A stretch of 64,000 bases of DNA from Malacoraja senta (GCA_038087875.1 CM075990.1:5706001-5770000), one strand, 5' to 3'. Shown: positions 3,045-59,434, counted from the first letter of the stretch. Notes: generated by a model from the sequence alone, not told the origin. Numbers and translations are program-made.

Positions 3045-3270
3045 AAACAAAGAACTGCAGATGCTGGTTTATACCAAAGTTAGACACAAAGTGCTGGAGT
3101 AACTCAGTGGGACAGACAGCATCTCTGGGGGTAAAGAATTGGTGACATTTGGGCCAGAGCCCTTCTTCAGACCTCTGACGTCTGAAGAAGGGCCCCAACC
3201 CGAAACATTGCTTATTTTATTTTTTCCAGAGATGCTGCCTGACCTGCTGAGTTGCTCCAGCACTATGTGG
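3045..3270. mobile_element. Palindromic Penelope-derived short repeat (two inverted arms)
   Basis: Left arm ..CTGGAGTAACTCAG..CCCTTCTTCAGAC is the reverse complement of right arm GTCTGAAGAAGGG..CTGAGTTGCTCCAG. The same motif lies next to GIY-YIG coding sequence at 17975-19460. Confidence 0.75.
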
Positions 3271-4007
3271 TTATATTAGATTTGTTGATGTTGATTCCAC
3301 CAGGGAACAGACAAGGTGATCAGAGGATAAGAATTGTTAGATTTTGAACACGGTACTCTTTCTTTACATTAATTTCATGGGAAGTAGGTGTCACTATTGT
3401 GGCCAGAATAATTGCCTGTCAATGATTGTCCTTGAAAAGGCAGTGGTGAGCAATGGAAGTTTTGAGGATGTAACAAAGAGCTTCAACAGTCACTATGATT
3501 CCCAAGGCTGCAATGCAGAGATCCGTAGGGAGTTATTGCAATGCATTTTGTAAATAGTACATATTACAATCAGATGACGATAATCACATTTGGCTTTTAG
3601 GTCAGGAGTTTGACCTGCTGAAAGTGGTTATTTTAATTTTTTTGGAATGCCTGTCAAAATCACCAATAGCAATTTGATTTTTGTTTGGATATATTCGTTC
3701 CAAGAATTCAAATGATATGTTGGGTAGTATATGATTATTAACAGCTGTGTGAATGTTATTTTGTGTATCTTTATGCTAATGTTTTTCAGTTATTGACAAT
3801 ACCTGAAAAAGTCGGTCTGATTTAAAAAAGATAGCATTGCCTTATTTTCAATAAAATCTTTCAGTTGCCCATTTCATTCCAGAAATGTGTTCCTTGAACC
3901 AAAGAATCTGACGACATTGCAATGCAGGTATTGCTTGACGGAGGGAATGTCCTTGTTCAATGGCAGATATTGTACAATGTACAACGACTGTATGACCCGC
4001 TGAGTTA

Positions 4008-5572
4008 TCCCCAGGGCCAGATAGGCTGCATCCCAGAGTACTTAAGGAAGTACCCCCAGAAATAGTGGATGCATTAGTGATAATTTTTCAAAACTCTTTA
4101 GATTCTGGAGTAGTTCCTGAGGATTGGAGGGTAGCTAATGTAACCCCACTTTTTAAAAAGGGAGAGAGAAAACGGGGAATTACAGACCAGTTAGTCTAAC
4201 GTCGGTAGTGGAGAAACTGCTAGAATCAGTTATTAAAGATTTGATAGCAGCACATTTGGAAAGTGGTGAAATCATTGGACAAAGTCAGCATGGATTTATG
4301 AAAGGTAAATCATGTCTGACGAATCTTATAGAATTTTTCGAGGATGTAACTAGTCGAGTGGATAAGGGAGAACCAGTGGATGTGTTATATCTGGACTTTC
4401 AGAAGGCTTTCGACAAGGTCCCACATAAGAGATTAGTATACAAACTTAAAGCACACGGTATTGGGGGTTCAGTATTGATGTGGATAGAGAACTGGCTGGC
4501 AAACAGGAAGCAAAGAGTAGGAGTAAACGAGTCCTTTTCACAATGGCAGGCAGTGACTAGTGGGGTACCGCAAGGCTCAGTGCTGGGACCCCAGCTATTT
4601 ACAATTTATATTAATGATCTGGATGAGGGAATTGAAGGCAACATCTCCAAGTTTGCGGATGACACTAAGCTGGGGGGCAGTGTTAGCTGTGAGGAGGATG
4701 CTCGGAGACTGCAAGGTGACTTGGATAGGCTGGGTGAGTGGGCAAATGTTTGGCAGATGCAGTATAATGTGGATAAATGTGAGGTTATCCACTTTGGTGG
4801 CAAAAACAGGAAAGCAGACTATTATCTAAATGGTGGCCGATTAGGAAAAGGGGAGATGCAGCGAGACCTGGGTGTCATGGTACACCAGTCATTGAAAGTA
4901 GGCATGCAGGTGCAGCAGGCAGTGAAGAAAGCGAATGGTATGTTAGCATTCATAGCAAAAGGATTTGATTATAGGAGCAGGGAGGTTCTAATGCAGTTGT
5001 ACAGAGTCTTGGTGAGACCGCACCTGGAATATTGCGTACAGTTTTGGTCTCCTAATCTGAGGAAAGACATTCTTGCCATGGAGGGAGTACAGAGAAGGTT
5101 CACCAGACTGATTCCTGGGATGTCAGGACTTTCATATGAAGAAAGACTGGATAGACTCGGTTTGTACTCGCTAGAATTTAGAAGATTGAGGGGGGATCTT
5201 ATAGAAACGTACAAAATTCTTAAGGGGTTGGACAGGCTAGATGCAGGAAGATTGTTCCCGATGTTGGGGAAGTCCAGAACAAGGGGTCACAGTTTAAGGA
5301 TAAGGGGGAAATATTTTAGGACCGAGATGAGGAAAACATTTTTCACACAGAGAGTGGTGAATCTCTGGAATTCTCTGCCACAGAAGGTAGTTGAGGCCAG
5401 TTCATTGGCTATATTTAAGAGGGAGTTAGATGTGGCCCTTGTGGCTAAAGGGATCAGGGGGTATGGAGAGAAAGCAGGTACAGGATACTGAGTTGGATGA
5501 TCAGCCATGATCACATCGAAGGGCCGAATGGCCTACTCCTGCACCTATTTTCTATGTTTCTATGTTTCTATG
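4008..5572 (+). mobile_element. CR1-clade LINE, 5'-truncated, young; RT and C-terminal part of ORF2 (ORF 4208-5491)
   Basis: RT motifs QHGF, YLDFQKAFDKVPH, GVPQGSVLGP and KFADD; CR1 C-terminal RPHLEYCVQFWSP and TRGH; (TTTCTATG)n tail. It interrupts a short repeat at CTGAGTTA|CTCCAGC. Confidence 0.95.
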
Positions 5573-5929
5573 TTACTCCAGCATTTTGTGTCTATCTCCG
5601 GCAGATATAACATTCAGTGCCAGCCTTAAGATGGGTGCAGTTTTGTGGTAACTCTCGTGTCTGTGTTTGTCTTTAGGGATGCTCAACTGTTGTACGCTTA
5701 CTTAGTGCATGTTCTAATCATAATATTCTTATCCTCCTTGGAGTAGTGCCAGAGGAATGGTGGACTGCTAACATTATGTTGTTAATTAGAAAGGGAGGAA
5801 CAGAAAAACAAAGTAATTACAGGACAGTCAGTTGGTGGTCAACAAAATGATTGTAATCTATTCTGAGGGACTGTTCATTAAGAAAAGCACAAATGAATGA
5901 AGGACAGTCTGCATGGACTTGTTAAGTAA

Positions 5930-6564
5930 AGTGCCTGTCCCACTTGGGCCGTCACTTACGCGACAGGCCGGTAGTGACGGTCGCGCGACTGTCCCGCGAG
6001 AGTCTCGCGCATCATCATGCGCCCGCACAGCCGTCTGGAGCACGTGACGTCATTTGAAGATGGACACAAAATGCTGGAGTAACTCAGCAGGACCGGCAGC
6101 ACCTCTGGAGAGAAGGAATGGATGATGTTCGTGTCGAGATTCTTCATCAGTCTGAAAGAAGGGTCTTGACCCGAAACGTCACCCATTGCTTCTCTCCAGA
6201 GATGCTGCCGGTCCCGCTGAGTTACACCTGCATTTTATGTCTATCTTCAATTTTCTTGGCCCCGCTCTGGGAGTAGGAGTGGGGGCGGATCCGGATCCGC
6301 AATGGCCGTGAGCCCCAGGCTGAGTTCGACGATCGTTTGCCTGCTTCTGTTGCTGTTGGAGGTGAGAGGTTGTGTCGCGCCAGGGTCTTGGGCCTGTCCC
6401 ACTTTGGCCGTCAGTTACTCGACAGGCCGGTGGCGCGTGATGATTTTGTGCAGGACGAAGTCCACACTCCTCCACACCACTCCATGCGCCCGTCCCGCGC
6501 GCAACCCACACGCTAGCAGGTCGTGTAAATGGCTCGCGAAAGACAGCCAAGTGGGACAGGCCCT
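5930..6564. mobile_element. PIF/Harbinger-like non-autonomous DNA transposon with nested insertion
   Basis: TIRs AGTGCCTGTCCCACTTGG / CCAAGTGGGACAGGCCCT, TAA on both sides. A nested Penelope-derived palindrome lies at ~6055-6250. Confidence 0.75.
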
Positions 6565-6854: not shown

Positions 6855-7325
6855 AGAACTGCAGATGCTAGATTAAATCGAAGATAGACACAAAATGCTG
6901 GAGTAATTCAGCGGGACAGGCAGCATCTCTGGAGAGAAGGAATGGGTGACGTTTCGGGTCAGGACCCTTCTTCAGACTGAGTCTCATTGTTTGCCTGGCN
7001 NNNNNNNNNNNNNNNNNNNNNNNNNNNNNNNNNNNNNNNNNNNNNNNNNNNNNNNNNNNNNNNNNNNNNNNNNNNNNNNNNNNNNNNNNNNNNNNNNNNN
7101 NNNNNNNNNNNNNNNNNNNNNNNNNNNNNNNNNNNNNNNNNNNNNNNNNNNNNNNNNNNNNNNNNNNNNNNNNNNNNNNNNNNNNNNNNNNNNNNNNNNA
7201 TGTTTCGAGTCGAGATCCTTCTTCTAACGTCTGAAGCAGGGCCTCGACCTGAAACGTCACCTATTCCTTTCCTCCCGAGATGCTGCCTGACCAGCTGAGT
7301 TACTCCAGATTTTTGTGTCTTCAAT
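6855..7325. mobile_element. Penelope-derived short repeats flanking the assembly gap
   Basis: Family motif on the minus strand at 6855-6980 and on the plus strand at 7228-7325. Confidence 0.65.
7000..7199. other. Assembly gap (200 N)
   Basis: Run of N. Confidence 1.
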
Positions 7326-10300
7326 TGAAAATGAGTGCCGCACAGAAGTATCTAGATGTTTTCTGCAAGAACGTTTGGTGGAAGCCCTGGGGAGCAAATT
7401 TAAGCATCTCCGGCATAGCAGGCTATTGATTCAACCATTTCTGTAAGGGCAATAGCAGTTTGAATTGGGTGTCAGACAAGCAATAGGGATGGAATGGAAG
7501 TGGGAAGAAGAATGCTGTCCTCCAGATAGAGGAGAGAAGTTTTCCCCAGAGCCAGTGCTACCTTTCTGGCCTGGTACACCCGCATTTCCAATGGTTGGTT
7601 GAAGGACATATTGCTGGATGTCTGTGAGACCATGCAAGTGCTCAGCATACTGTAATCCACAGAAAGTTTGACGTACAAAGAGGCAATCAGGCTGTGCCAG
7701 ATGAAAAATCCCAACCAGGCTCACTTCCAGCACAGGCTTTGTATTCCTTCAGGTCTTCAAGTTCACATTGTTAAACAAGACGAAAATTTCTTCCACTATC
7801 ACCCTGCCAGGCAGTGAGTTCCAGACTCCTACTACCCACTGAGTGGAAACAAAAAATCTCCACTCCTGCCAACAATTACTCCGAATCTATGATTCCTGGA
7901 TTTTGCACCTTCTGTTAATGGAATCGTCCTTGCTATTTACTCTGTCTCGGCCCCTCGTCATTTTTATAAGCAATTGAATTGAATTTCCATTCTGTAACTA
8001 ATGTTGGGGAAAAAATAATCCCAGCCAATCTAATGTTCCGTCAAGCCTGCTTGAGGCCTGTTGAATACACTCCTAAACATTTAACTGCTATTTTTGGTTC
8101 AATCCATATTCCCATTTGGTTATATGTCATCCTTCCTCACTGCTTCTTCATATATATCATTGCTTTTTGCAGGTGTGATTATAAAAAAAAAATATTAATC
8201 TTCTTCTTGCGTTTGAGGCAGCAGAAGTCTGCAGCAGGGTGATGCCAACCGGTTCGACATCTGTAGGTGCCCGCCCTTAAAAGGGCGCATGCTCTGGGTT
8301 GGCGCCAAGCTGCGGTGCTGCTGCTGTCTCTGTTTGTTGTCGTTCGCCTGACTGAAGTCAGTTGACAGGGCTCACCACGGGGAGGTCGACAACATGAGCC
8401 CCAAAATATGAATGATACCTTCACAATGTTTTATTCCCTTGTTTATCTCGTCTGAAACCTCAGTAAGCAGTAATTTAAACTGCCAATGCTGCCCACTTTA
8501 CATCAGGTTCAGTATAGCAGTCTCAGCTTCCGGTTCAACAGCGAGACGGTGTGGCTGAAAAAGCTTCTAATATCATGAAATGGTGCATCAAAGTAAAGAT
8601 GGTTTTTTTTACGATGGCTTGTAGAAAGCTGACTCCTCCATATTGGATTTCTAGTAAGCTTGCTAATGCATTTCATTGAAGATAGACACAAAATGCTGGA
8701 GTAACTCAGCGGGACAGGCAGCATCTCTGGAGAGAAGGAATGAGTGATGTTTCAATTGACAATAGACAATAGGTGCAAGAGTCGGCCATTCGGCCCTTCG
8801 AGCCAGCACCACCATTTAATGTGATCATGGCTGATCATCCCCAATCAGTACCCTGTTCCTGCCTTCTCCCCATATCCCCTGACGGGTCGAGACTCTTATT
8901 CAGACTGATGTCAGGGGAGATGGAGATACATAGATAGGAAGTCTAAGGTGTGAAAACAGGACAAAGGGGACGGTGATCAAGGAAAATGTAGACTAGATCA
9001 TTTTCTAGATCATTGTTAGCTGGGAGAAGCTAACAACAAAGCAAATGAGAAAATGTAGTCGGAGACAATCAGACTGGTCGGCGAACTGGGAAGATGGAGA
9101 GAGGGAAAGCAAGGGTTGCTTGAAGTTAGAGAAGTCAATGTTCAAACCATGCATAACAATGCATTGAATTGTATGTACTGATGTAACCTCTGTAGGTCTG
9201 CCCTGTCGAAGTGCACATCTGTCTTCTGTACCGCAGAATTATTTGCAGTCCTCACCTCAGGCAAACCACTAAGACAGTATGCTTGCTTTTAAATCAGAAG
9301 ACTGTAGTTTGAAGGGGGGGATGAGATGGTGTTGAGGTGCGAAGGCACGTTCATATTCAATTATTTCATCCCCAACACCGACTGCAGTCTCAATAGCTGG
9401 CATCTCAATGATGGGCAGTGCCAACTCTGTCACTGGAGCATGCAGATAGATGTGTTTTCCTCCATTTAGGTGGTGCTGTGTCTGTGTGCCACTCTGATCT
9501 GCAAGTGAGGAAAATGTTGCAATGAGCATCATGCCACAAATGGGTGATGTTTGTCATGCTTGAATAGCTAGTAGATTCTGAAAACAAATACATCTGAGGA
9601 TTGAAGCAGAACTAAGTTATCTCGTAGAGGAGATTGTTGTTTAACAAGCAATGATATATTGTGAAAACTGCATGTGAACTGTATGGCTGGTGCAGTAGTT
9701 GATAGGATATAAGGGCAAGGGTTTTACTGACTGACTGACCATAAGTTTGCTGAAATGTTTATGCCACTCATATATAGCTTTTCAGGTGTTATTGAGTATA
9801 GCTTTAAGAAACATATATAATATATAATATTCAAAAGCAAAATAGATTGATTAAAATAACCACACTCAGAAGGTATTTAATTGAAGTAGATTTTTGTAAA
9901 CTTAGTTAAAATAAGATTAAGAGAACTGTATTATCAACTGCAGAAAGATAAAATTGTTATAAATGATTGAGAGATATTTTAGCTGCAGCTTTACTCTGTA
10001 GCGCTGTTGCATTTTTTGAAAAATTAAACTGGAATTTACAAGTTAATTTCACTTTTTGGTCACTGCCTATTTTGAATGTTAAATAATGGAGTCTGGGCTG
10101 GGTTTTCTGTTTTTGTTGTTACATAAAGCAGTAGACTGGAAAGTAGAGTAGAGACTGTAAAGTAGACTGTAATAATATACATTCTTTTTAAATTACTACT
10201 CGCTTGTTATTCCTCACCAGATGCCCTAACTAGGCATTAATAGTTTTTTGTCAATTGAACATATTCATTAAGTGAGAAACTTAATTCTCCCTTTATTAAA

Positions 10301-11261
10301 ATTATTTATTTGTAAGAGCCATCATGCAAACATCTATCAAGACGTGTGGATTTTGGTTTACCACTTAGATTCATATTCAAGAGGGTTCAAGTTTTGAGAT
10401 GATGAAAACAGTTTATTTCGAGACCCTTCGAAGGGTCTCGACCCAAAACGTCACCTGTTCCTTCGCTCCATAAATGCTGCCTCACCCGCTGAGTTTCTCC
10501 AGCATTTTTGTCTACCTTCGATTTTTCCAGCATCTGCAGTTCTTTCTTAAACAAAACAGTTTATTTGTTTGTTTGTGGGATGTAAACATTGCTGCAAATG
10601 CCAGTCCTCTCCATCTGTAGTTGCCCCTGAACTAAGGTGGATATCAAGAACTAACTACATTGAAAGTCATATATAGACCTAACTGAAAAGTAGGGAAGAC
10701 ATTCTTGCAGATATTCATAAGCCAGATGGGTTTTTACAACAGTCCGGTAGTACTCATTGTTACTATTATTGGCTTTAATTATTCATATTTCCATAATCCA
10801 GATTCTATGGTAGGATTCAAATCTGAGTCCCTGGATCGATGATCCAGAACTCTTGACTGTTATTCCAGTAACTTTAACAACCATGTGCCCTTTAACAAGG
10901 CCTTCTAAGTTTATAGTAATCTTATTTTATGTTTTAATTGAGCAATTACATGTGTTAAATGTATTTGTTTTGGAGCTGCATTGCATAGGCACTGGATGAA
11001 GCCTGGGAAACTGCTCAGAATAATGTGGAGCATGCAGAACAAGTTAGGAAAATGGGCAACTTTAATATTAGAACTGATTAGATATTTGTCTATTGAATTA
11101 TATAAAGAGAGTAACGTTCCCACTGATCTAAAGATAATTAAAGTAAAAAGAAAAAGGGTAATGCCCATTCAGCGCATGGACATTACAATTTTCAGATATG
11201 GTACTTCAGATGCCTTAATTGACCCAGATGTGCAGAGGAGAGTGTGTAAGAAGGAACCACA

Positions 11262-11800: not shown

Positions 11801-14800
11801 ATAACTGCAGATGCTGGTTTAAACCAAAGATAGACATAAAAAAGCTGGAGTAACTCAGCAGGACAGGTAGCATCTCTGGAGAGAAGGAATGGGTGAAGTT
11901 TTGGGTCAAGACCCTTCTTCAGACGTGCGGAGGAGAGTGATCGTCAATGCACATTCTCCGGAATTTACCTAGGCCCAATATGGGAGTAGTTAATGGGGAT
12001 AGTTTAATCTGGTGATGGTGATGTCACATGGGTAGTTAAGCTCAGGAAAGGTGAAGAACTTCCATGGTCCAACTTGAACCACTGGTTTCACACTGTGTAC
12101 AATCTATTCTCTCATCCAACAGCAATCTCTATTACTCAAGCACGTGACCAACATTAATTTTCTCCAATACACACAAACACATCACTACTGTGCAGTTCTC
12201 GTGCCCGTTTCCCAGCATATACTATTATCACAGATTCAATGATAGCAACCATAATTCCCAGAATCATTGCAAAGTATTCACTCTCACACTTCCTTTACTC
12301 TTGTAGAAGTGAATCAACATTGTCATCAGCTGGAGTAGTCTAGCACCCAACACCGTACTCAACAGACAGACTACATATCTATTAATAGAGTGGTGGTCTC
12401 AAAGTCTACAGCTGTGCCACTGCACTCCAGGTGATATTGCAGACTTGGTTCCAGCATGGTCTAAACAAACAATTCAATAGACATGGTGAGAGCCAACGAT
12501 CTTGACACTATTGGCACGTATAACCAAGTGAGGCCGGTCATCCCAGTCCCGCATAACCTCGGGACCATAGAATCATTTAAAATTAATCGAATTTACCTGG
12601 TTCCTTTGAGCATAAATGCATCGATGTAAACTACAAATAAATGATAATGAAAATGATCAGAAAAGGCTCATTTTGAAGTGGAAAATAAAAAAATTACTGG
12701 TGCTTATGCAGCAGTTTAAAGAGGTTTCATCATAGGCCTGGTATACATAGTCTCCATGTCATGTTCACAGATCAAAAAAATAATCCAGAAGTATCAATAA
12801 CATTCTCCAGGGGAATTATTTTTGAAGCACACTCATTGTCATAGGCAACATCTTGTTGAAATGAGTGAGAATGCAAATTATCTTAAAATATTTCACCAAA
12901 CGACTGATAAGTAACATTTTTAAATGGATAGATATCTAATGATATTCTGATCTGAAAAACTAGACTTTTTCACTAAATGTTAAGAATCTGTTTTTATTTC
13001 TGTACAATAATATTACGGCCCCAGGGAATATATATGCCCCTCAGTTTATACAAAATCAACTGTAGTGCTGTACAGCTGAGTAGATGTTTGTATTAATCTG
13101 CAGTGCCTTGTTTACTCCAAGTAATGTCTGTCTGTTGACAATCTTGTCAATTCATGGCATTTTGATTGCATTACTCTAAATGGTGCCTTGTTACCATAAA
13201 TCTCCTGTTCTATGTAGCCTTACTTTCTTTAACAACCAGGAAACAAACGTTCCACAAATAATAGCACTGTGTCATTGGATCTGGTGATTTGTAAAGACTG
13301 AAGGGTTTCTTTTTACATTTTCAGACCAATTCATGGGTCAATAACAATGCTTCACTTTAAATAAGGAAGGGCACGGTTCTTTATCACTTGAGGGGATGAG
13401 GTCATGGTAAGGAAGTGAAGGGCACAACAATCAATCAGTTAGTAATGGTTATGAAAGAAGCCTGTCGGTCGGTACACAGCGCAAGCAGAGTTATTCTCTC
13501 ATGGTTTACTAAAGCTTTCAATCTTCACAGAAGCAGAGTATTGTGTAGGAAAACAACTGCAGATGCTGGTTTACACCGAAGATAAGCACAAAATGCTGGA
13601 GTAACTCAGCAGGGCAGACAGCATCTCTGTATAGAAGGAATGGGTGACGTTTCGGGTCGAGACTCTTCTTCAGACTGAAGAAGTCTACTCCAGCATTTTG
13701 TGTCGATCTGTGCAGAGTAACTTTTCCACATTATTTTTAGTAATAATATCCCCCCCCCCCCCCCCCCCCTTAGATTTGAGATTGTTTTTCTCTCTGTATC
13801 TGAACCTTGCAAAACACTTCCTTTTAAGAATTCCTAAATAATATTTTATTTCTATACAATATCTCAAGGGTCAGATTCAAGGAGTAAACCACAGTGCATT
13901 TAGCATTCTGATGCATTTTATATGGATGGTTCTCATTATTTAAACTGATGTTAACTCTGAATTTATTCCATATTCACACTAGTGTAACACACATTACCAC
14001 AGATTATACCAGACAAATATGCATAATGAATTTTGAAGTTGTTGAACAATTAATAGTAATAATTGTATCAGGTACAAAAGAAACAAACAATAATGCAGAA
14101 ATCTGCACACTGGTATCTGAAATAATGGCAATTTAATTAAAATTGAGGTGCCTACTGCAGTTTATGTAATGACAGTCCAATGTACTCGGTCGCTGCCTGT
14201 AATATTATTGTACAGTACCTGTTAATGATGGAATTGGAATTCTCTTCAGGCCTGATCTTGGCCTTCCCATTAGACCAGTAGAAAACCGTCCAGTGAAAGC
14301 TAAATCTGTGCTACTGTTTAATTTTATGCAGCCGTCTTATTAAATTTGCTTAGGTTTGCACATTCAAACATACAATCATAAAGAAAGAATTCAGAATCAT
14401 CATCCTTTAACACATTCAATTCAGATTTTGTTCAACCACTCTTCAACCCACCACTGGTCTGCCTAATCATGCAGTCTACTGTGAGAGGTAAAAGATGAGA
14501 CAATTAGGTTTACAACTCCTTGAGGCAAGCAAACCACAAATCCTTTAAATCCTCATCTAAACTAAAACCTCTGACCTACTGAGTATTCACTAATTTCCTC
14601 AAGTCTGCATTATACATTCCTTCCCACCAACTTTAAAAACTTATCTCAACCACATCTTGGCTTGTCTAACCAAATTCATCTTTTCAAACATAAATGTTTC
14701 TTTTAGCATTATGATTCAACATTTCACTTTATTAAAGTGATTTTATTAAATATAAATCTCTTGGCTCTTTATAGATAAAAAATAAATTGATCAATGCAAC

Positions 14801-44216: not shown

Positions 44217-46031
44217 ACCTGACAAATCAAATCCTCCTCTGTCCGTGATTGTTGCAAACTGGGTAAAATGATGAACTGCATCCTCATGTTCTTTGTTGAA
44301 ATTTTAATAAGTCCTCTTTTAATAGGACTTTCATGTGCTTATGAAACTTGAATACAATTTATATATATTGTACACCAAAAACAATACTGACACCTTTGGT
44401 GTTAATTGTTATTTTCTTTGGAATGGTGGCCAATTCAAGTTCATTACCATAGCCTATTCACCAAACCAGCACCAAAAACCTTTTGGGGAAATTGGTCAGT
44501 TTAATTTCACTGTGTGCAATGAGGTATACTTTAGCGAAAATAAGTTCTTCCTGGCAGAAGTTGACTTTGCTTTTTACTTGGAAATCAAGCAATTACAACA
44601 ACTGTGGTGGAATTTCACCCCTAGGTGTTGCTGGCACAATATCCATATGGGTCTTTCTTTTAAAAACGGCAAGTACTTATTTGAACATGTTTATCCAGAG
44701 AGCAAGTGTGGCTTCAGTGCTGTTAAATCAACAACCAACATAGATTTGCAAGAAGAGTCAGTTGTATGCCTCTCAATCTGACAAATGCTTTTGATTGACC
44801 TAGTCAGCAAATAAAAGTATTTTCCAATTATTTATGAGATTTACCTGCCATATCTTCCTAACTTCCACGAGTCTTATTCAGTATTTTCATAATAGTACCA
44901 AAGTTATAGGTCCCATTGTAATTAATGTGCAAAAGGCATGTTTTGGCACATTCTTTGGAACACTTTGTCATTTTAAAGGGCATTTTACCTATTCAGGATC
45001 AGATAGGGGTTTACCTACTTTCAAATTTTACCAGAATGCTGCCTGGATTAGAAGGTACGGTATTAGCTATAAGGAGAGTTTGCAGTTGCACAAATTTGGA
45101 TCGTTTTCTCTGGAACATCGGAGGCAAAAGGAAGTCATGATACAAGTTTATAAAATTATCAGAGGCATAGACAGGGTAGATAGTCTGAACCTTGTTCCCA
45201 GGGTGAAGTTGTCAAAGATTAGATGACACCATTTTAAGATGAGAGGGTCAAAGTTTAACAAAGATGTGCAGGGCAATTTTTTTTTTGGGCCAAAGTGCCT
45301 GTCCTTGTGCTGTACTGTTCAATAATTTTAGAACATAGAAAAGTAAAGTATAGGAACAGGCCCTTCAGCCCACAATGTCTGTGCTGGACACGATGCCAAG
45401 ATCAACTCTTATCTGCCTGTACATAATCCGTATCCCTCCACACCCAACAAACAGCTAACAATGGCCTGTTTCCTTTATCATCGTTACTTTTTTGCATATC
45501 TTTCATTCATTGTTCTATATCTCTCCACATCATCGTCTATATCTCTCATTTCCCTTTCCCGTGACTTTCAGATTGAAGAAGGGTCTCGACCTGAAACGTC
45601 ACCTATTCCTTCTCTCCCGAGATGCTGCCTGTCCCACTGAGTTACTCCAGCTTTTTGTGTCTTATCTTCCATGTGATTTTGTGTCTTATCTTCCATCTAA
45701 TTTGTTTCAAGAAAGTTTAAAGTGATCCAAGAGTATCAAAGTAAAGCTTCAAAATCGGAAACAAGGAACAGCAGATGCTATTTTCCCAAAAAAGAACTGC
45801 AGATGCTGCAACCTTGAGCAATGCTCAAAGTGTTGGAGGAAATCTGGGTCATGCAGCATCTGTGGAGGGAATGGACAGGTATGGATGTTGTCTGGCTCTC
45901 TGAGCTTCTCCTGCCCTGTGTTTTGCTTAACATTTGTCACCATTCCCAACTTGCCAAATTAAAAGAATATATTTTCCATATTCTTATTCCTTCCAGAATC
46001 TACCCCCCCCTCCCTCGTCCACTTCAATCCC

Positions 46032-46480: not shown

Positions 46481-48657
46481 GGACCTACCCAGGTCATACA
46501 GCAGCGCCAGGGCCTGGAACTAGGCCTTGTTCTCGCACTTGGCTCGGTCCAGGCTCGGTCCAGCCGTCAGCTTGGAAGCGGGTTGAAAGTTTGAGTTAAA
46601 AACTGGGTTTAAAAACTTGGTTTGGGGTATTTTAAAAGGCTGCAACTTCGGAAATATAGGTGGAAATGCGATGGGAAGATGTTTATGGCGACCACGGGGA
46701 AAATGTGAGTGGGATATGTGAAAATGGGAAGGCTGTGGCCTAGCGTTAGGAAGAAGATAGGAATTAACCAGATTTTAACCAGATTGACACACACATACAG
46801 AGACAACCACACAGAGATCGTGGGCACAAACACAAACAATAGGAAGGCTTTTAGTATTATAGAGATGGGGTGTTGTTAGAGCAAGACCCAGTGCAAACAA
46901 AGTTTTGAAAAATCACATGTCAAGCTGTATTTTTTAATAATATTTGAAAAGTATTCAGTTTGGGTAGAACATGGAAAGGGGTTATTAGCACAATCAACAC
47001 ACTTGTCATTATGCTATCAGTATCACATAAACTGAAATGGAATGGAGCTAGGTGGCATTATGGACATTGAAATAGTTGACTTAAGTAGTGGAACAGCAAT
47101 ATGGTTAAAACATAACCCTGTTAACACAATGCAAAAATTGCAAATGACCTAACCCAGCTTGGGTTAATTTTCTGGAATGGTTAGAGATTCAAGCTAGTGG
47201 GGGTTGAATACAATGGTTTCAAGTCTTCCCATATTGCTTGGATATGTTACTTACATGTTATTGTATTTTATTAGATATTGTGTTGTTACTTCTAAAAACA
47301 TGGAATAAAGCAAGAGTTGGGATGAACTGGACCCGTGAAAAATGACATCATGCTTTTGAATGAATTTGCTGAAAAGTAACCTGTAAATGAGAAAATAAAG
47401 GGGTCAAGTACAAATCGTCAGGTAACTGAAAGCATGGTAGCAGTAACTATTATATTTGTTTCTCTGGCTTTTTTATGATAAGTAGCAGAGCTGACATAAA
47501 ACATGTGCATTTAATTAAAACATAAAAATACAAGTTCAAAGACAGTAATAAAAAAAATGGTTTAACTTAGCACCAAAACTTTTTAGATATAGTTATTACA
47601 TCAAATAACTAATCTTTGTAACATACTAAGTCTAGAGGTTCCTTGTATAGTTGGAAATGAGATCGGGAAGAGCATTTCAGGTAGGTCGTTTATGGTAAAG
47701 AAATTGGCATCATCTTTGTGTTTTTTAATAATATTTGAAAAATATTCAGTTTCAGCAATGGAAAACAGAACCCTATCATTGTTTTTGTAGCTTAGCTGAA
47801 GCCAGGATTGGATAATTAAACTAGCTGTCTGCCAAAGATATTTAAACAAATGTTAAATGTGAGGTGGTCCACATGACATGCCAAGATCAAAGGGTCGACT
47901 ATGTCAAAGACATTGATGTGGGAATAAATTTATGGAAGAAAAGCGAGCAAAGGCCACTATATAAAGGGTAAGTAGAATTGACACAATATTAGTGGGCAGA
48001 AATCAGTGTTGAGGCTGGGACAGGAAAATTATAAAGGAAGACCATTCCCTCTGGAATTTCCCAACCTCTGTCAATAGCTGATTAGAACATTAACAAATTA
48101 CTTTATTCAGAGTAAGTACAGAACATATTGGAAAGACTCTGTGGGTCAGGTAACATCTGTATAAAGAAAAACAGAGTAAATTGAGCGTACACAAAAATGC
48201 TGGAGAAACTCAGCGGGTGCGACATTGTGGGCTCCGCCTTTCCTTGAGCACTGTTGTGTTTTGAACATCTTTCATTCATTTGTACTATTTACCTTCTATA
48301 TCTTTCGTTCAGACTCTCAGTCTGAAGAAGGGTCACAACCCGAAACGTCACATATTCCATTTCTCCAGAGATGTTGCCTGACCCGCTGAGTTACTCCAGC
48401 TTTTTGTATCTATCTTTACATTGAGATGGTATATTGATTTACAAGAACACTGCCAATGCTGGAAATGTTTTACTGAGTATTAGGTGCATTCAGCCCTTTG
48501 AGTTTATACTAACTGTCTGACTAACCCCATCGCTCTCATTCTACCGTTTATTTCTTTATATCGATTCTCTCACACATGCCCAATAACACTACCTCGATCA
48601 TCCAGCACTTACACAAGGACTAATTTAGTTAGCAATTAATGTATTGGAATGGTGGGA

Positions 48658-48693
<36 letters not shown>

Positions 48694-49930: not shown

Positions 49931-49949
49931 TTCACATGCGCATATTATA

Positions 49950-50181: not shown

Positions 50182-50211
50182 ACATACGCATATATATACA
50201 CACGCTATACA

Positions 50212-51725: not shown

Positions 51726-53208
51726 TTCAGTATAAAATGTGTAGGAAGGGACTACAGATGTTGGGTTTGAACCGAAGGTAGACACAAAAAAGCTGGAGTA
51801 ACAGCGGGTCGGGCAGCATCTCTGGAGAAAAGGAATATGCGACGTTTCTGGTCGAGACTGAGAGCCAGGGGAGAGGGAAACGAGAGATAAAGACGATAGA
51901 GAGAGATATGGTACAAATGAATGACGGATATGCACAAAAAAAAGTGACGATCATGGAAACTTCATTGCTGAGTGTGGGCTGCAGCTTTCTGTGTCTATCA
52001 CACACACAATTGTGAAAACGGAAGCGTTCTGGATAGAGGTGGCAAATGAGGCAAAGTAGGAAGCAGGATCATGGAAATGAGGCAACTTTTTGGACTGGGC
52101 TCTCTGGAAAAATAGAAAGTTGCTTTCCACCACAGGAATGTGTGGAACTGTTAACCATCAGATACAAATGCGGTCGTTATTGGATGTTCGGGCATAAGAG
52201 TTATTGTAGAGATTATTATTGGTTGTGCGCAGTCTTGGCTGGGTTACGACGCATTTAACCCGGGCATACATTCATCACTTTTCACCAAAAGAAGCTGCTA
52301 GTGATATACTTTAATACGAAGTTAGACAGTTCAATAACATTTAGTTACTCCAGCTTTTTGCGTCTATCATCACATGAATATGTGTCCCAACAATTGGTAC
52401 AATTAACGAATGCAGTAATTCATTAGTTACTGAATAATTCGTTGATTACTGCGTTCATTAATTATACAAGTTATAGGATGCGTTTTCGTAGCGGGTATTG
52501 AAGTGCATAACTTGCATTAAACATTTGGTGCAATTAACAAATGCGGTAATTCAAGTCTGAAGAAGGGTCCCGACCCGAAACATCGCCCATTCCTTCTCCC
52601 CAGCGATGCTGCCTGTCCCGCTGAGTTACTCCAGCATTTTGAGTCTACGCGGTAATTCATTCATTGCTGCATTCGGCAATTGTACCAGCTAATTGCTGAA
52701 TGACTGCATTCAGTAATTGGACCAGTTGTACAATCGAGGGTGGGAAAAGTGAGCAAACAATGAAAAGGGGGCCGGGAAAAACACAAATAAATGTAGAATT
52801 TATTGCTTTTTGTAGAGGAAGGAAGAAGATAGTTGGACTAGTTAAACTCAGGTGAGTTGCTGTGGGTCTGATGGTTCTCATTCATATTCTCCAGTATAAT
52901 CTGTGTACTTGACGCGTGATCTGTCAATCAACCAAGCGTCACTGCATTTCCAGGAGCCGATGGTTCAACAACTCCTGCCTCCAAGGGCTGTGATAAAAGG
53001 GATCGCTGCCCCCAAACTAAAGAACAGTTCATCGAAGGCCAAAAATAGTGGACCGTCTGTATGCCGTCTGTCAGTCGGAACAGAGGGTGGGAGAAAACGA
53101 GCGAACAATACCTTTTGCATTGCAATTCCACCGCACATGAAGTAGAATCAGGGTTTGCGTGGAGCTTTTTTATTCCAGATGTGTTGGCTTCCAAGCTAGA
53201 AAGACGCT

Positions 53209-53284
53209 ATGGGATATATTTATTTATTGATTTCTTTCATTCCGATCATATTAAAAAACAAACTTCATGCATCCCGAACCGAAG
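53209..53284 (+). CDS. ADAMTS14: ADAMTS14 first coding exon (signal peptide-like)
   Basis: ATG gives MGYIYLLISFIPIILKNKLHASRTE; donor GAAG|gtaaat is phase 1, matching the phase-1 acceptor at 53521. Confidence 0.75.
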
Positions 53285-53521
53285 GTAAATATTAACAAAA
53301 ATATCCCTTTTTGTGAACAACGTGTATTAGGTTTAAACATGTAAACCAAAACACTGCCAGTAAATAATGTTTTATCCAGAAGGCAGTGGCAATCCTCTCT
53401 CTGACTGTAATTTAATGGCATAAATTCAGAGCAACTGCATGGAAATGCTATTTTGCAGCAAAAAGATACGCAGAAACTCGATACAGGTTCGGAAGTAACA
53501 ACTGTGTTTTTTCCCCCACAG

Positions 53522-53889
53522 ATGCGCTTTTCGAGAGGTTTACGGATTATGGGCTGATAGTACCGTTTAGTACCGATGACCGGGGTCAGTACATTTCGCA
53601 CATTGTATCGACGGTATACGGCCAGCTTCGGTCTGGGCGGCGCGTTGCACGGAGCAGCCCACAGCAGAGCGGAGACCGGGAACTGTACTTTAACGTTACC
53701 ATTTTCGGGAGAGAATTGCATTTACGCTTGAAACACAACAGCAAGCTGGTTGCTCCCGGTGCAACGGTGGAATGGCAGGAGGATTTTGGGACCGTAGTTA
53801 CCGAACCAATCCATGGAGACTGCGTGTTTTCCGGGGATATTACTGATATGCCAGGAGCAACCGTGGCTCTAAGCAATTGCGATGGATTG
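53522..53889 (+). CDS. ADAMTS14: ADAMTS14 prodomain exon (procollagen N-proteinase subfamily)
   Basis: Acceptor ttttttcccccacag|, donor |gtgagt. Peptide (D)ALFERFTDYGLIVPFSTDDRGQYISHIVS..RRVARS..LYFNVTIFGRELHLRLKHNSKLVAPGATVEWQEDF..DCVFSGDITDMPGATVALSNCDGL. DYG..VP.STD.RG and VEWQEDF, plus PALD1 linkage, favour ADAMTS14 over ADAMTS2/3. Confidence 0.9.
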
Positions 53890-55909
53890 GTGAGTGCGGA
53901 AAAATAGCTATACTAACTACTGTAATTAACACAATGTTGGCGAGGGGAGTGTGATGATTATTAATGAGATGACCAATTGAACCCATTTGGGAAGTTCCAG
54001 TAAACATCACAATAACAAAAGCGTTGTACATTGTGTATGCAAACAAAGAATTTCCCTGTGCCTAGCACATGTGACAATAAAGTATTCCTATTCCTATCCC
54101 TGTCCTCCACTATCCTTCCCACCCTTGAATATATCAGCCAATCGCATACAAAAGAAACGTGAAAGTTTTTTAGTTGTTCACTTGGTACATTCGCTTAATT
54201 TTGCAATGATAAAGTAAATTGGCTCACTTTCAATAGATTCTCAAACTGGTATGTTTAAACAATGTTAATTAATTTGTTACTTTGTGTTGTATACTGTGTG
54301 CCGGGCTACAGTAACACAATTCGCCGAATATCAGCATCCTACGGTACTAATACTAGCTAGCGTTCTTCCATGTTAAGGGTTTCAGTTTTTCCGCCCTTCC
54401 CTGTGTTCTGATTGGTGAGATGTTAGGGTGATTTGAGATAGTGACCTTTATCTCCTTTCCGGATTGGCTTCTACTTTATATGCAATTAGACCGAGGAAGA
54501 GCAAGAGGGCATCGTTTTTGTTTTTGGAAAAAAAATCTTCAGGATAATGACTCTTTTTGGAAAATGTTTATTTGTCAACGACGTTTATTCTCAATGTTTT
54601 GGATCCATTATTGCGGTACCGTGGATATTCCATTAACCAAATGCAGTGATATACTAAGTACTGGAGTAACTCAGCGGGTCAGGCAGTATTTCTGGAGGGG
54701 AAAAAAGATAGGTGACGTTTTGGGCCGGGGCCCTTCAGACTGGTTATCTTTGGTATAAATCAGCATTTGTAGTTCTTTGTTTCCACTAAATGCTGTGAAT
54801 TAGTGATTGGGTGGTGCGGTGTTATTCGTCGTTCTCCTCGTCATGTTTTTGTAGTGACTGAGCTGTCGTTAATTTTGTTGCGTCGCGAGTCCTATTGTCA
54901 CCATATAACTGGGGTGACGGCCTTGAAGGTTAGATTTTCAGACCGCCAATTCACTGGAAAACGACAAGGATGAAGCACAAATCCGCGGGGATCTACGTTG
55001 AGCGTTTAGTTTAACAGGATAATCTTGGGAACCTATCAACATTTGGTCTGCGACTGCAACCTTCCATGCCTTATCAGATTAATTCTTACTGCTTAAATGT
55101 TGTCCAAGGCATCTGGCACCGAGTTCGTGATTCCAACTACCCTGTGGATATAAATGTTCTTTAGATCTCCTCTAAACCTCTCTCTCAACCCATGTGCACT
55201 AGTTTTGAAAAACAACTGGTATGGCGAGGCGTCCTACAATGTACTCTGTGTCTGTCTGTCATAATTTTGTATTTAGGATTTAAATCAAAACTACACTTTG
55301 CGTTTTAACCACAGCTTGCAGGAAATCGTAAATTATGGTAATGGCAGGGTTGTGAAGGAAGCAGAAGCCTGGGAAAATGTCTGTTCAGAATAGCATAATC
55401 TGCTGTGTATCTTCAACCAAATGAGTTACCATTTGTAAGGGCAACTGAATACTATGCATGATTACTCCATATTACCTTCTTTGGTATGGAAATACAAGTT
55501 AAATTTGCTTTGTGTAATTACAAATTGAATTCCAGCAAGTTCTGTATATTCCATTTAACTTAATTTTCATGCCTTATTTTTTATATTCTGTCTTTAATTT
55601 TGGAAGAATGTTTCCTAAATCAGATGTCAGCACAGACTTATGAGATGGAAACAATCCCCAAATTAACATCAATATTTGAGTATACCTATGGGCTAGATAA
55701 TTCTGAAGACTTACCAACATTGTGTAAAGAATTTTATTCTCACTTCAATTCACAACAGTCAGTTCTTTATCCTGAGGCTATGCTTCCTTGTTGTAGATTT
55801 TCCATCTACAAGAAACAACCTCTTGACATTTACCATATCAAATCCTTTCAAAACTTTCATATTTCAATGAACTAAAAACTCATCCTTGGTGTATGTAATT
55901 CCATTTTAC

Positions 55910-56115
55910 TTGAAGATAGACACAAAGTGCTGGAATAACTCAGCGGGTCAGGCAACATCTCTGGAGAGAAGTAATGGGTAACATTTCGAGTTGAGACCCT
56001 CCTTCAGTTGACCCAAAACACCCGTTCTCTCCAGAAATGCTGCCTGACCCACTGAGTTGCTCCAGCATTTTGTGTCTACTTTCAATTTAAACCAGCATCT
56101 GCAGTTCTTCCCTAT
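55910..56115. mobile_element. Palindromic Penelope-derived short repeat
   Basis: Two inverted arms of the family motif. Confidence 0.7.
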
Positions 56116-56998: not shown

Positions 56999-57859
56999 CA
57001 TAGATACATAGAAAATAGGTGCAGGAGTAGGCCATTCGGCCCTTTGAGCCTGCAATATGATCATGGCTGATCATCCAACTCAGTATCCCGTACCTGCCTT
57101 CTCTCGATACCCCCTGATCCCTTTAGCCACAAGGGCCACATCTAACTCCCTCTTAAATATAGCCAATGAACTGGCCTCAACTACCCTCTGTGGCAGAGAG
57201 TTCCAGAGATTCACCACTCTCTGTGTGAAAACGTTTTTCCTCATCCTTTTCCCCCTTATCCTTAAGCTGTGACCCCTTGTCCTGGACTTCCCCAACATCG
57301 GGAACAATCTTCCTGCATCTAGCCTGTCCAACCCCATAAGAATTTTGTACGTTTCTATAAGATCCCCTCTCAATCTCCTAAATTCTAGCGAGTATAAGCA
57401 AAGTCTATCCAGTCTTTCTTCATTTGAAAGTCCTGACATCCCAGGTATCAGTCTGGTGAACCTTCTTTGCACTCCCTCTATGGCTATAATGTCCTTCCTC
57501 AGATTTGGAGACCAAAACTGTACGCAATACTCCAGGTGTGGTCTCACCAAGACCCTGTACAACTGCAGTAGAACCTCCCTGCTCCTATACACAAATCCTC
57601 TTGCTATGAAAGCCAACATACCATTTGCTTTCTTCACTGCCTGCTGCACCTGCATGCCTACTTTCAATGACTGGTGTACCATGACACCCAGGTCTCGCTG
57701 CATCTCCCCATTTCCTAATCGGCCACCATTTAGATAATAGTCTGCCTTCCCGTTTTTGCCACCAAAGTGGATAACCTCACATTTATCCACATTATACTGC
57801 ATCTGCCAAACATTTGCCCACTCACCCAGCCTATCCAAGTCACCTTGCAGTCTCCTAGC
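56999..57859 (-). mobile_element. CR1 LINE 3' fragment
   Basis: ORF 57080-57895 is nearly identical to the C-terminal part of 4208-5491. Confidence 0.92.
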
Positions 57860-58202
57860 TCTGGCCAGACTGACTTGCTCTGGCCCTTCTTGCAATAAAG
57901 GTCAACATACTCATTGACTTTCTAATTACTTGCCGCATCTCATTTAAACTTTCAGTCTTTTGTATAATAGCGTCTTGGTCACATTAATGTTCATTTCTTG
58001 TGTAGGAAGGAACTGCAGATGCTGGTTTACACTGAAGATAGACACAAAATGCTGGAGTAACTCAGCGGGACAGGCAGCATCTCTGGAGAGAAGGAATGGG
58101 TGACATTTCTGGTCGAGTCCCTTCTTCGGATAGAGTCGGGGTGAGGAAGTCTAGAGATATGGAGGGGTGAGGTGCGAAAATGACAGATCAAAGCAGATAA
58201 TG

Positions 58203-59245
58203 TAGCAATGTTACAACATTTTGAGATTTAAAAAATAAAGTCTGTAATTTATCCCATCAGATAAAGCATAAAAAGAAGTTTAATTTGACACCTAATTCAC
58301 TTTCATATCTTCAGTATTAAAAATGTTATGGCCATTTTCATACTCGGAAATTAGCATCTTGTTCCTTATTGCTTTTCCATTGACTTAACACAAAAGCTGT
58401 GATCGCGGACAGTCAAAAGCCCATAACATTCTTAAAAATTAAGAGAACTGAAAGAAATTTTCATTTATTATAGATTGAAGCATTCTGAAACAAATATGAA
58501 ACAATCTTACTTGGATGACATGAAATTAAAGCATATAATTAGTTAGTTACCTAATTGTAGCTAATTACAAAATTCAATTACTAGATCTAAACATCCATCA
58601 ATTTCTTAAGAATAGATTAACATTTTTTAATAGCCTAAGTGTCCAAATAACATTCACACAAGAATTCACAATATAACATAATTTTTAAATCTCATTATCA
58701 TAGATTTATAGGCCAAATGGAAGAAATTTAATGTTTAATACCTGTAAATTAATGGGCATTTATATCTTCTTGCGTATGGGGATTTCTGGAACGCGATCAT
58801 TTGGAACGTTGATTTGCGGTGAATTTAATCCCGTATCGGCATGAAAATTATTGCCGTTGGTTCGGGGAAAAGAATCACCGTTTCGCATGTAAAAATGTGA
58901 ATTAAAGGCCTCTTAAGGAGAACGTTTATACATTAAAATAAACTGCTTTCGTTTACCTGTCCCGTGTGTGAAATCCGTCCCCGTTGTCGGCGTTGACGGC
59001 TTCAGAAGCTGATTTTAAAATGACTCCAGCGCTGAAATTGTCGGGAGATTTTTAAAACAAAATACTCAAAACGCCCCTCGGAACGATTCTTCCGCAAAAG
59101 CTGGTACTCCAACGAAATATAATACAGGACAAGGTAGGAGAAACCCGCGTTTTAACCCAGCCCTCCCCTCAAACGCGCCAAAATCGTGCACACGGCCAGT
59201 GGCAGAATTGCAGCGCCGCTGAAGGTAAGTATTGTAACATACCTA
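58203..59245. mobile_element. ~1.04-kb MITE, copy 2 (inverted), nested in a Penelope-derived repeat
   Basis: TAGCAATGTTACAA..TTGTAACATACCTA; flanking direct repeat (A)GATAATG; host repeat at ~58000-58202 and 59246-59380. Confidence 0.85.
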
Positions 59246-59434
59246 GATAATGATAAGGAAATGTTGAATCTGAAGAAGGGTCTCAACCCGAAACGTCACC
59301 TATTCTTTCGCTCCATAGATGCTGCCTCACCCGCTGAGTTTCTCCAGCATTTTTATCTATCTTCGATGTTTCTTTCTTAAACAGGAACTGTTAAATGGTT
59401 CATTGTATGCTGAGGGAAAGGTCACGAGGAATAC

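What the first reader, a model, noticed from the sequence alone, without database searches (positions are those of the whole stretch)
3182..59300. Dispersed minimal hammerhead ribozyme cores in the abundant Penelope-derived short repeats
Seen: the commonest short repeat contains CTGA(A/T)GA-A-GGGTC-NN-GACCC-GAAA-CG-TC. Plus-strand copies start at ~3182, 6152, 7231, 40111, 48322, 52557 and 59270; minus-strand copies are at 6948-6975, ~13647-13674, ~18045-18070 and 35769-35796. Loop II varies (TC, CT, CC) while stem II is mostly kept, including G-U variants (GGGTT/GGCCC). The motif is physically linked to a GIY-YIG ORF at 17975-19460. Known: CUGANGA/GAAA/NUH is the hammerhead core, and Penelope-like elements carry minimal hammerheads with a vestigial palindromic stem III (here ACGT) that are thought to act as dimers. 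Inference: this genome has a very high-copy ribozyme-bearing non-autonomous family, and sense copies would lie within PALD1 and ADAMTS14 pre-mRNA.
Basis: partly seen in the sequence, partly recalled or inferred. Interest (0 to 1): 0.75.

Follow-up and report, generated by a model that had tools for sequence, protein, structure and literature searches.

The report
Skate Penelope stubs carrying minimal hammerheads
This very common short repeat is the end-piece of a Penelope-type jumping gene in a likely skate genome; it carries a published kind of tiny self-cutting-RNA motif (cutting untested here) that is complete in only 5 of 19 full copies and decays as fast as the DNA beside it, so the copies are likely inert by-products of the element's copying and not regulators of the two neighbouring genes.

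Summary
The motif is real and non-random. The window holds 36 pieces of a ~95-135-nt repeat; 19 span the hammerhead core and 5 keep the strict motif, only 5 of the 11 copies named. It is the terminal repeat (pLTR) of a Neptune-type Penelope-like element and matches the published minimal hammerhead: no helix III loop, extra base after A9. Corrections: stem II is 4 bp with a 4-nt loop; stem I is only 2 bp; the 'GIY-YIG ORF' is a frameshifted remnant split by an 864-nt insertion; no sense intronic copy has both the strict motif and a 2-bp stem I. Core bases mutate privately as fast as flanks (6/189 vs 38/1023) but carry no shared variant (0/10 vs 19/54 columns), so selection likely acted on source elements only. 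Copies start 2-5 nt before CUGA and none starts at the cut site, which fits run-off cDNAs of uncut RNA better than a separate non-autonomous family. Rough abundance is about 10^6 copies. The class is known, and this scan already holds 220 notes on the same words in at least 11 genomes.

The parts
18043..18070 (-). Hammerhead motif at the end of the ORF-linked element; helix III palindrome lost (ACAT)
   Evidence: lies about 100 nt after the GIY-YIG stop codon at 18169-18171
17976..18213 (-). 3' end of the Neptune-type element: last codons of the GIY-YIG domain, C-rich 3' UTR, hammerhead motif, ~65-nt downstream segment
   Evidence: unitigs of public runs bridge ORF end and motif (records 4 and 18)
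19078..19445 (-). Decayed CX4CXXC linker plus GIY-YIG endonuclease remnant, frameshifted by a deletion
18214..19077 (.). 864-nt unrelated insertion that splits the GIY-YIG remnant, TTA on both sides
6866..6980 (-). Stub with strict motif (6948-6975), 2-bp stem I, with tail; antisense in the inferred PALD1 last intron
35691..35843 (-). Stub with strict motif (35769-35796) and tail, joined head-to-head to a short inverted piece (35805-35843, +)
40105..40216 (+). Stub with strict motif (40111-40138); 4-bp stem I partly supplied by flanking DNA; best candidate for activity; between the two genes
48317..48430 (+). Stub with strict motif (48322-48349), longer pyrimidine-rich upstream part; between the two genes
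59266..59370 (+). Stub with strict motif (59270-59297) but 1-bp stem I; sense in ADAMTS14 intron 2
52551..52662 (+). Stub inserted as a unit: starts 3 nt before CUGA, 13-nt target-site duplication (12 of 13 equal); helix III palindrome lost
3062..3285 (.). Head-to-head inverted pair of full stubs (cores at 3170 - and 3182 +), both damaged; tail on one arm
6051..6255 (.). Head-to-head inverted pair (cores at 6150 - and 6152 +), arms overlap at the start; both damaged
7200..7334 (.). Head-to-head inverted pair (7226 -, 7231 +), both arms start 2 nt before the core; both damaged; one arm runs into an N gap
13564..13718 (.). Stub (core 13646-13673 -, stem II broken, tail) with short inverted partner
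32808..32988 (.). Stub (core at 32910 -, G12 lost) with inverted partner that carries the tail
55905..56097 (.). Stub (core at 56007 -, damaged) with inverted partner that carries the tail
8667..8916 (-). Stub split between C11.1 and G12 by a ~130-nt insertion
11812..11927 (-). Damaged stub with tail (G12 lost)
34621..34723 (+). Damaged stub, sense in the inferred PALD1 last intron
45569..45678 (+). Damaged stub (C3 to U) with ~90 nt of shared upstream element sequence
58020..58132 (-). Damaged stub with tail, antisense in ADAMTS14 intron 2
10430..10526 (+). Stub lacking the CUGA box
51766..51858 (-). Stub with the core box deleted, long upstream part kept
54647..54741 (-). Stub with 3-nt deletion in the core box and a C-G fourth pair in stem II
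60142..60390 (-). Second, older GIY-YIG remnant of the same element; its hammerhead end is missing
34925..35071 (+). Context: last coding exon of PALD1 (paladin)
53209..53892 (+). Context: first two coding exons of ADAMTS14 (53209-53283, 53521-53892)

Best explanation
The repeat is the ~95-135-nt terminal piece (pLTR) of a Neptune-type Penelope-like retrotransposon and carries the published minimal type I hammerhead motif; the dispersed copies are likely dead-on-arrival cDNAs, likely made when the element's reverse transcriptase starts about 100 nt inside the 5' repeat of an uncut transcript and runs off an RNA end 2-5 nt before CUGA. Shown here: family membership, link to the GIY-YIG end, sharp 5' start, two 3' ends (with or without a ~35-nt tail), head-to-head pairs, one clear target-site duplication, neutral decay of the core in the copies, and no shared variant in the core. 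Inferred: run-off from the RNA 5' end, priming on both target strands for the inverted pairs, and purifying selection on the core in source elements only. In a source element the 5' and 3' motifs would pair through the ACGU palindrome to form a dimer that cuts weakly, probably only with the element's protein. In host introns the single copies would be essentially inactive.
For: PLE origin: Pfam GIY-YIG; CX4CXXC linker as in Neptune (motif definition in PMC8557442); best protein relatives 79-89% from skates; unitigs bridging ORF end and motif. In metagenome contigs 38 of 128 look-alike motifs have a PLE protein match in the locus, 34 of these upstream on the same strand. PLE hallmarks: tail in 6 of 20 copies, 7 inverted pairs. 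Sharp start: loose ends pile up 2, 3 and 5 nt before C3 (1126, 1167, 2017 contigs in run X1; alike in X12 and X2); the first two classes go on into unrelated AT-rich DNA. Copy 52557 starts at -3 inside a 13-nt duplication. None of 36 hits starts at the cut site, and no pile at the cut site is among the loose ends shown. Neutral decay: private changes 6/189 in the core vs 38/1023 downstream, p 0.83; the CpG at C11.1/G12 is changed in 12 of 25 copies, like loop II (12 of 26) and a downstream CpG (15 of 30); G12 to A in 14-16% of depth in three runs. Selection on sources: shared variants in 0 of 10 core columns vs 19 of 54 downstream, p 0.026. Literature: internal initiation, tail, cleavage and extension of both strands, protein-assisted hammerhead and uncut RNA as dominant template for the anole element (PMC11167929); single motifs inactive, dimers weak (PMC4209133).
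Against: No full-length element or RNA 5' end was seen; the run-off step rests on where copies start. The anole data are for a Poseidon element, not Neptune. About 5-6 of 22 copies keep longer upstream sequence, so ordinary 5' truncation also contributes. A short master element with the same ends would look almost the same. The shared-variant test has 10 core columns and 19 copies, seeds were picked by likeness to the core, and the core is purine-rich (purine-only 0 of 7 vs 8 of 18). Within the window stem covariation is not above shuffles (184 of 500). No cleavage assay was run.
Confidence: 0.68

Rival explanations
1. A separate non-autonomous, SINE- or retrozyme-like family: a ~100-nt master RNA that begins just before CUGA is transcribed on its own and mobilised by the Neptune protein.
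For: Fixed 5' and 3' ends and a target-site duplication around a 93-nt unit; short copies outnumber ORF-linked ones several-fold (summed depth 2.1e7 at the 3' end vs 3.2e6 at the ORF end); animal non-LTR retrozymes are proposed to be non-autonomous PLE derivatives (bioRxiv 10.64898/2026.07.22.740005).
Against: No head-to-tail array in the window, which defines those retrozymes; short copies share the tail and subfamily letters with the ORF-linked copy (18070 groups with 40111 and 10430); inverted pairs with arms of unequal length fit PLE insertion by-products.
Confidence: 0.17
2. The dispersed copies are active ribozymes (in trans-dimers or with protein help) that cut PALD1, ADAMTS14 and other pre-mRNAs, and the host tolerates or uses this.
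For: 5 strict motifs in 64 kb; putative RNA runs hold the repeat (their RNA status is a guess); copy 40111 has a predicted dimer only 1.9 kcal/mol above two monomers in a 50-nt context.
Against: Neutral decay of the core; 2-bp stem I against at least 3 bp in 102 of 128 relatives; predicted dimer penalty 7.9-14.5 kcal/mol for the other four strict copies vs median 7.0 in relatives, and a competing fold that pairs the purine core with the downstream pyrimidine tract; only one strict sense copy in an intron, with 1-bp stem I; no significant strand bias (5 sense, 9 antisense, p 0.42, little power); published single motifs do not cut.
Confidence: 0.07
3. The copies are ordinary 5'-truncated ends of the 3' pLTR; reverse transcription stalls at the C-rich tract or at stem II, which mimics a fixed start.
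For: PLEs are known for heavy 5' truncation (PMC8557442); a C run lies ~10 nt upstream in ORF-linked copies; some copies start further up or further down.
Against: Starts cluster at -2/-3, short of the C run and past stem II; the first flank letter at the -3 start is a G on the element strand in 3 of 3 runs against an AT-rich flank consensus, as expected from a copied cap; in invertebrate relatives only 22 of 92 motifs share 8 nt or less upstream with a family mate.
Confidence: 0.08

Closest known systems
Minimal type I hammerheads (min-HHR) in pLTRs of metazoan Penelope-like elements (Cervera and De la Pena 2014, PMC4209133; parts 1-2 of 4 read)
   Same: CUGANGA and GAAA boxes, no helix III loop, palindromic 15.2-16.2, extra base between 9 and 10.1, G10.1-C11.1 pair, in Neptune pLTRs, mostly single dispersed copies, some close pairs on opposite strands.
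   Different: Helix II 4 bp (7-8 bp in Schistosoma); helix I 2 bp (4-5 bp typical; 2 bp reported for D. virilis); rough count of 5e4-4e5 strict motifs against ~4,000 in coelacanth and ~9,000 in Xenopus; no cartilaginous fish named in the parts read or the two supplement files searched.
EN+ Penelope-like elements, Neptune clade (Craig et al. 2021, PMC8557442; passages read)
   Same: C-terminal GIY-YIG, CX2-5CXXC linker, 5' truncation, inverted 5' partner, optional 30-40-nt tail, hammerhead in the pLTR.
   Different: No RT or whole element in the window; most copies are reduced to the terminal ~100 nt with a sharp start.
PAc, Poseidon element of Anolis (Frangieh et al. 2024, PMC11167929; parts 1-2 of 4 read)
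   Same: Two 3' ends that define a tail; uncut hammerhead in the inserted copies.
   Different: Other clade; there the ORF starts inside stem II, which could not be tested here; mechanism shown in vitro there, only inferred here.
Animal non-LTR retrozymes (PMC7229834, passages; bioRxiv 10.64898/2026.07.22.740005, parts 1 and 3 of 5 and passages)
   Same: Short type I hammerhead-bearing repeats related to pLTRs; axolotl has 126,247 motifs; one chondrichthyan was sampled in the preprint.
   Different: Those are head-to-tail arrays of 170-400-nt units giving circular RNA; here copies are solo or head-to-head, ~100 nt, with a minimal core.

Membership tests
Minimal type I hammerhead of metazoan PLEs | CUGANGA and GAAA boxes plus NUH in type I order | tested here: met
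   majority letters of 19 copies; 5 strict copies
Minimal type I hammerhead of metazoan PLEs | No helix III loop; palindromic A15.1-C-G-U16.1 | tested here: met
   ACGT is the majority state; CG kept in 12 of 27 copies covering it, the rest mostly CpG decay
Minimal type I hammerhead of metazoan PLEs | Extra nucleotide between 9 and 10.1; G10.1-C11.1 pair; helix II | tested here: met
   extra A in 19 of 19, G10.1 in 19 of 19; 4-bp helix II 89.7% paired
Minimal type I hammerhead of metazoan PLEs | Helix I (4-5 bp typical, 2 bp in D. virilis) | tested here: inconclusive
   2 contiguous pairs, 85.3% paired, U-A or U-G at the first pair, no two-sided change; relatives mostly 3-6 bp
Minimal type I hammerhead of metazoan PLEs | Compensatory changes across families | tested here: inconclusive
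   not above shuffles within the window (184 of 500); clear in stem I among metagenome relatives (second pair C-G 18, U-A 8, G-C 8 of 44 flank types)
Minimal type I hammerhead of metazoan PLEs | Located in the pLTR of a PLE | tested here: met
   about 100 nt after the GIY-YIG stop codon
Minimal type I hammerhead of metazoan PLEs | Self-cleavage as a dimer | not testable with these tools
   needs an in vitro assay; only contigs, no raw RNA reads, were listed
Neptune-type EN+ PLE | C-terminal GIY-YIG endonuclease | tested here: met
   PF01541 above cutoff
Neptune-type EN+ PLE | CX2-5CXXC linker before the endonuclease | tested here: met
   CX4CXXC in the remnant and in shark and ray relatives
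Neptune-type EN+ PLE | PLE-type RT upstream in one ORF, and placement in the Neptune clade by an RT tree | tested here: inconclusive
   RT is absent from the window; relatives P0004 and P0040 join RT and GIY-YIG; no tree was built
Neptune-type EN+ PLE | Inverted 5' partner and optional tail | tested here: met
   7 head-to-head loci, tail in 6 of 20 copies
Non-LTR retrozyme | Head-to-tail tandem units each with a hammerhead | tested here: not met
   no tandem array among 36 hits; only rare short head-to-tail joints in unitigs (1-10 contigs each)
Non-LTR retrozyme | Circular RNA of unit length | not testable with these tools
   no raw RNA reads

The most novel reading that the evidence does not exclude
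In skates the hammerhead motif sits on the element's own Pol II start site (initiator-like TCAGT, +1 three bases before CUGA), about a million stubs are DNA copies of the capped first 95-135 nt of the RNA, and with only a 2-bp stem I the core is kept in source elements for promoter or protein-binding reasons more than for cutting. The stubs would then be a genome-wide record of PLE start sites, reverse-transcription start sites and two-strand priming.
Probability: 0.3. Interest if true: 0.55.

Novelty: new member of a known kind. Interest (0 to 1): 0.27.

Why it matters
The class is published, so the motif itself is no surprise. Two things have some value. First, the density: roughly one piece per 1.8 kb and, by rough extrapolation, 5e4-4e5 strict motifs in a genome of about 2 Gb, as many as or more than the 126,247 counted in the far larger axolotl genome. 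Second, the anatomy of the stubs bears on an open question, what PLE hammerheads are for: copies come from uncut RNA, start at the motif's edge, and keep the core only in source lineages. That makes cheap tests possible (5'-RACE, dimer cleavage, promoter assay). There is no support for a role in PALD1 or ADAMTS14 regulation.

Tried and rejected
Rfam: no hammerhead family among 42 matches at E up to 1 in the whole window, as expected for a motif without helix III. Whole genome: none held, so genome-wide counts and the intron depletion test could not be run. Sequencing runs: no RNA holder listed on record, contigs only, so RNA ends could not be mapped; this is no evidence on expression. A contig of a putative RNA run that begins at the element's start (record 26) was rejected as evidence because a DNA-run contig begins at the same place (record 2). 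Per-position conservation from unitigs is incomplete: the tool dropped differences, and even the loop II differences of the reference copy are not listed, so only the listed CpG rows were used. The crude core-versus-flank test (3.2% vs 10.0%, p 0.0013) was rejected as evidence of selection on copies, since it vanishes when private and shared changes are separated. The 5-bp stem II was rejected. The 4-bp stem I of copy 40111 was rejected as a family trait: the family's upstream letters differ and a 6-nt duplication suggests target DNA (6 nt can be chance). Target-site duplications: clear for 1 of 23 copies scanned, weak 6-10-nt matches for 6 more, one 15-nt match (10425) not examined, none for 15. 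A splice-site exon scan and a first motif scan missed PALD1; one search found its last exon. Copies starting at the cut site: 0 of 36. A DPE-like element over the GAAA-CGUC box was considered; the match to the Penelope DPE of PMC2377424 is only 5 of 8 letters and is not used. Lunse et al. 2017 (PMC5785218) is not held; only its title in a reference list was seen, and it may include cartilaginous fish. Literature searches: hammerhead + Penelope (45 papers, 25 listed), Penelope/skate/shark/cartilaginous/retrotransposon, hammerhead ribozyme + shark + Penelope (1 paper, the word shark used only for the shape), (swamped by hammerhead sharks): none of the listings describes this skate family; absence from print is not shown. 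Supplementary figures of PMC4209133 (file 1 not searched) and the preprint's supplements were not seen and may hold chondrichthyan examples.


Full report
Observation. A profile built from 15 seed copies finds 36 hits in the window and none in each of 5 shuffles. Nineteen hits span the whole core and differ from the majority sequence by 10.8% on average (5.6-18.9%). A strict pattern matches 5 places against 0.00 expected; these are 5 of the 11 named. The other 6 are damaged: three by CpG decay of the ACGT palindrome (3182, 52557, 18070), one by an extra A in the CUGANGA box (6152), one by A9 to C (7231), one by a broken stem II pair (13673). Stem II is 4 bp with a 4-nt loop; the 5-bp stem with a 2-nt loop is sterically rejected.

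Host. The GIY-YIG piece has its best relatives in skates (79-89%) and the ADAMTS14 exon is 97% identical to the little skate protein, so the window is likely from a skate. No genome is held. PALD1 shows only its last coding exon (34925-35071, +) when two full-length paladins are searched against the window, so 1-34924 is inferred to be its last intron; ADAMTS14 begins at 53209 (+).

Origin. The repeat is the end of a Penelope-like element. At 19078-19445 (-) lie a CX4CXXC linker and a GIY-YIG domain (Pfam 26 bits, cutoff 22.6). The linker is the Neptune-type mark described in PMC8557442 (passages). This is no ORF: a deletion shifts the frame, and 864 nt of unrelated DNA with TTA on both sides splits it; the last codons resume at 18210 and the motif follows about 100 nt after the stop. 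The link is general: unitigs of public runs bridge ORF end and motif (records 4 and 18). The copies show PLE hallmarks: a ~35-nt tail in 6 of 20 and 7 head-to-head loci.

Is the motif a true hammerhead? As a class, yes. Stem I was not part of the pattern, yet 102 of 128 have 3 or more contiguous pairs, against 35 when flanks are shuffled between motifs (many motifs are family mates, so not independent). The second pair is C-G, U-A or G-C in 18, 8 and 8 of 44 flank types. Of the 128 motifs 38 have a PLE protein match in the fetched DNA, 34 upstream on the same strand, 1 downstream, 3 opposite. This is the min-HHR of PMC4209133 (parts 1-2 of 4 read): no helix III loop, palindromic 15.2-16.2, an extra base after A9, G10.1-C11.1, mostly single copies, about 4,000 in coelacanth and 9,000 in Xenopus; single motifs did not cut and dimers cut weakly. 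The skate version is at the weak end: stem I has 2 contiguous pairs then an A-C mismatch (85.3% paired, no two-sided change), and covariation inside the window is not above shuffles (184 of 500). Predicted dimer penalties are 13.9, 13.5, 7.9 and 14.5 kcal/mol for four strict copies and 1.9 for 40111, against a median of 7.0 for 68 distinct relatives; several copies fold with the purine core paired to the downstream pyrimidine tract. These are nearest-neighbour estimates without tertiary contacts.

Selection. A crude count makes the core look conserved (3.2% vs 10.0%). Split by type, private changes are equal (6/189 vs 38/1023, p 0.83) while shared changes are absent from the core (0 of 10 columns vs 19 of 54, p 0.026). 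The CpG that includes the catalytic G12 is changed in 12 of 25 copies, like loop II (12 of 26) and a downstream CpG (15 of 30). In unitigs G12 reads A in 13.7, 15.6 and 15.4% of depth in three runs (incomplete table). So the core was likely kept by selection in replicating source elements and decays freely after insertion.

How the stubs likely arise. Their 5' ends are sharp. In three runs loose ends pile up 2, 3 and 5 nt before C3 (1126, 1167 and 2017 contigs in X1); the first two classes run into unrelated AT-rich DNA, the third into the element's C-rich upstream part (264 further rows not shown). Copy 52557 starts at -3 inside a 13-nt target duplication, so it was inserted as a 93-nt unit. 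In three inverted pairs both arms start within a few bases of this point. None of 36 hits starts at the cut site. The start matches the initiator consensus TCA(+1)GT (recalled), and D. virilis Penelope has an internal TATA-less promoter in its pLTR (PMC2377424, passages). For the anole element, reverse transcription starts at two internal sites that define the tail, both target strands are cut and extended, the hammerhead needs the protein, and uncut RNA is the main template (PMC11167929, parts 1-2 of 4). Together: initiation at the sites in the 5' repeat and run-off at the RNA start would give exactly these 95-135-nt stubs, and priming on both strands would give the head-to-head pairs. I had this reading, which then showed the same idea in earlier notes; that repeat is no independent support. 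A separate short master element cannot be excluded.

Host genes. Full-core copies in genic DNA are 5 sense and 9 antisense (p 0.42; all hits 10 and 14), with little power. The four full-core sense copies in the PALD1 intron (3182, 6152, 7231, 34626) all fail the strict motif, and three are arms of inverted pairs that would pair with their partner. The one strict sense copy in an intron (59270, ADAMTS14 intron 2) has a 1-bp stem I. Copies 40111, 48322 and 52557 lie between the genes; UTR limits are unknown.

Abundance (rough). Window density gives about 1.1e6 pieces, 6e5 full cores and 1.6e5 strict motifs (Poisson range 5e4-3.7e5) for an assumed 2-Gb genome; summed unitig depth over an assumed single-copy depth of 25-45 gives 1.1-2.0e6 for the repeat and 0.7-1.3e5 for the ORF end. 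The tool warns that summed depth is no copy number, and one window need not be typical. For scale, axolotl has 126,247 type I motifs (PMC7229834, passages).

Verdict. Real, known in kind, a new member at unusual density. The searches listed under Tried and rejected showed no paper on the skate family, but one key paper and some supplements could not be read. This scan holds 220 notes with the words skate, Penelope and hammerhead in at least 11 genomes. Interest 0.27.

Noticed in passing
window 8336-8402 (-): HDV-like ribozyme fold: Rfam RF02682 34.1 bits (gathering 44; E 0.015 in the whole window, 9.4e-5 in a 401-nt scan). P1 7 bp with a G-U pair at the cut site, P2 7 bp, P3 3 bp, P4 with a UUCA loop, catalytic C kept; the GG of P1.1 reads GU. 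Single copy in the window, no ORF behind it; likely the 5' end of a decayed LINE. No look-alike in earlier notes.
   Followed up: partly
window 21583-25398 (-): Open 1271-aa endonuclease plus reverse transcriptase frame of L1 type, with repeated segments near 20865/25936/26364 and 21074/26145; may be a young, intact LINE in the inferred PALD1 intron.
   Followed up: no
window 18214-19077: 864-nt GC-rich insertion with a short tandem run at one end and TTA on both sides; family not identified; a 58-nt match at 63793-63847.
   Followed up: no
window 8754-8882: About 130 nt resembling a CR1-type LINE 3' end (label recalled) inserted exactly between C11.1 and G12 of a hammerhead copy.
   Followed up: no
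window 1-34924: Only the last PALD1 coding exon lies in the window, implying a last intron of more than 34 kb; two N gaps of 100 bases lie in the window, one next to copies 6975 and 7226.
   Followed up: partly
runs X1, X12, X2 laid on window 6918-6990: Rare head-to-tail joints that restart the motif 1-3 nt after the cut site (6980 to 6945/6946, 1-3 contigs each): tiny tandem motif dimers, possibly a footprint of cut RNA, too few to judge.
   Followed up: no
protein P0005 (zebra shark), C-terminal read-through: Its last residues fit a translation through the same hammerhead motif, which suggests the motif is at the same place in shark elements; indirect.
   Followed up: no
L001-L124: In metagenome relatives the two letters before CUGA are mostly C then A (36 and 47 of 59 flank types), also initiator-like.
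   Followed up: no
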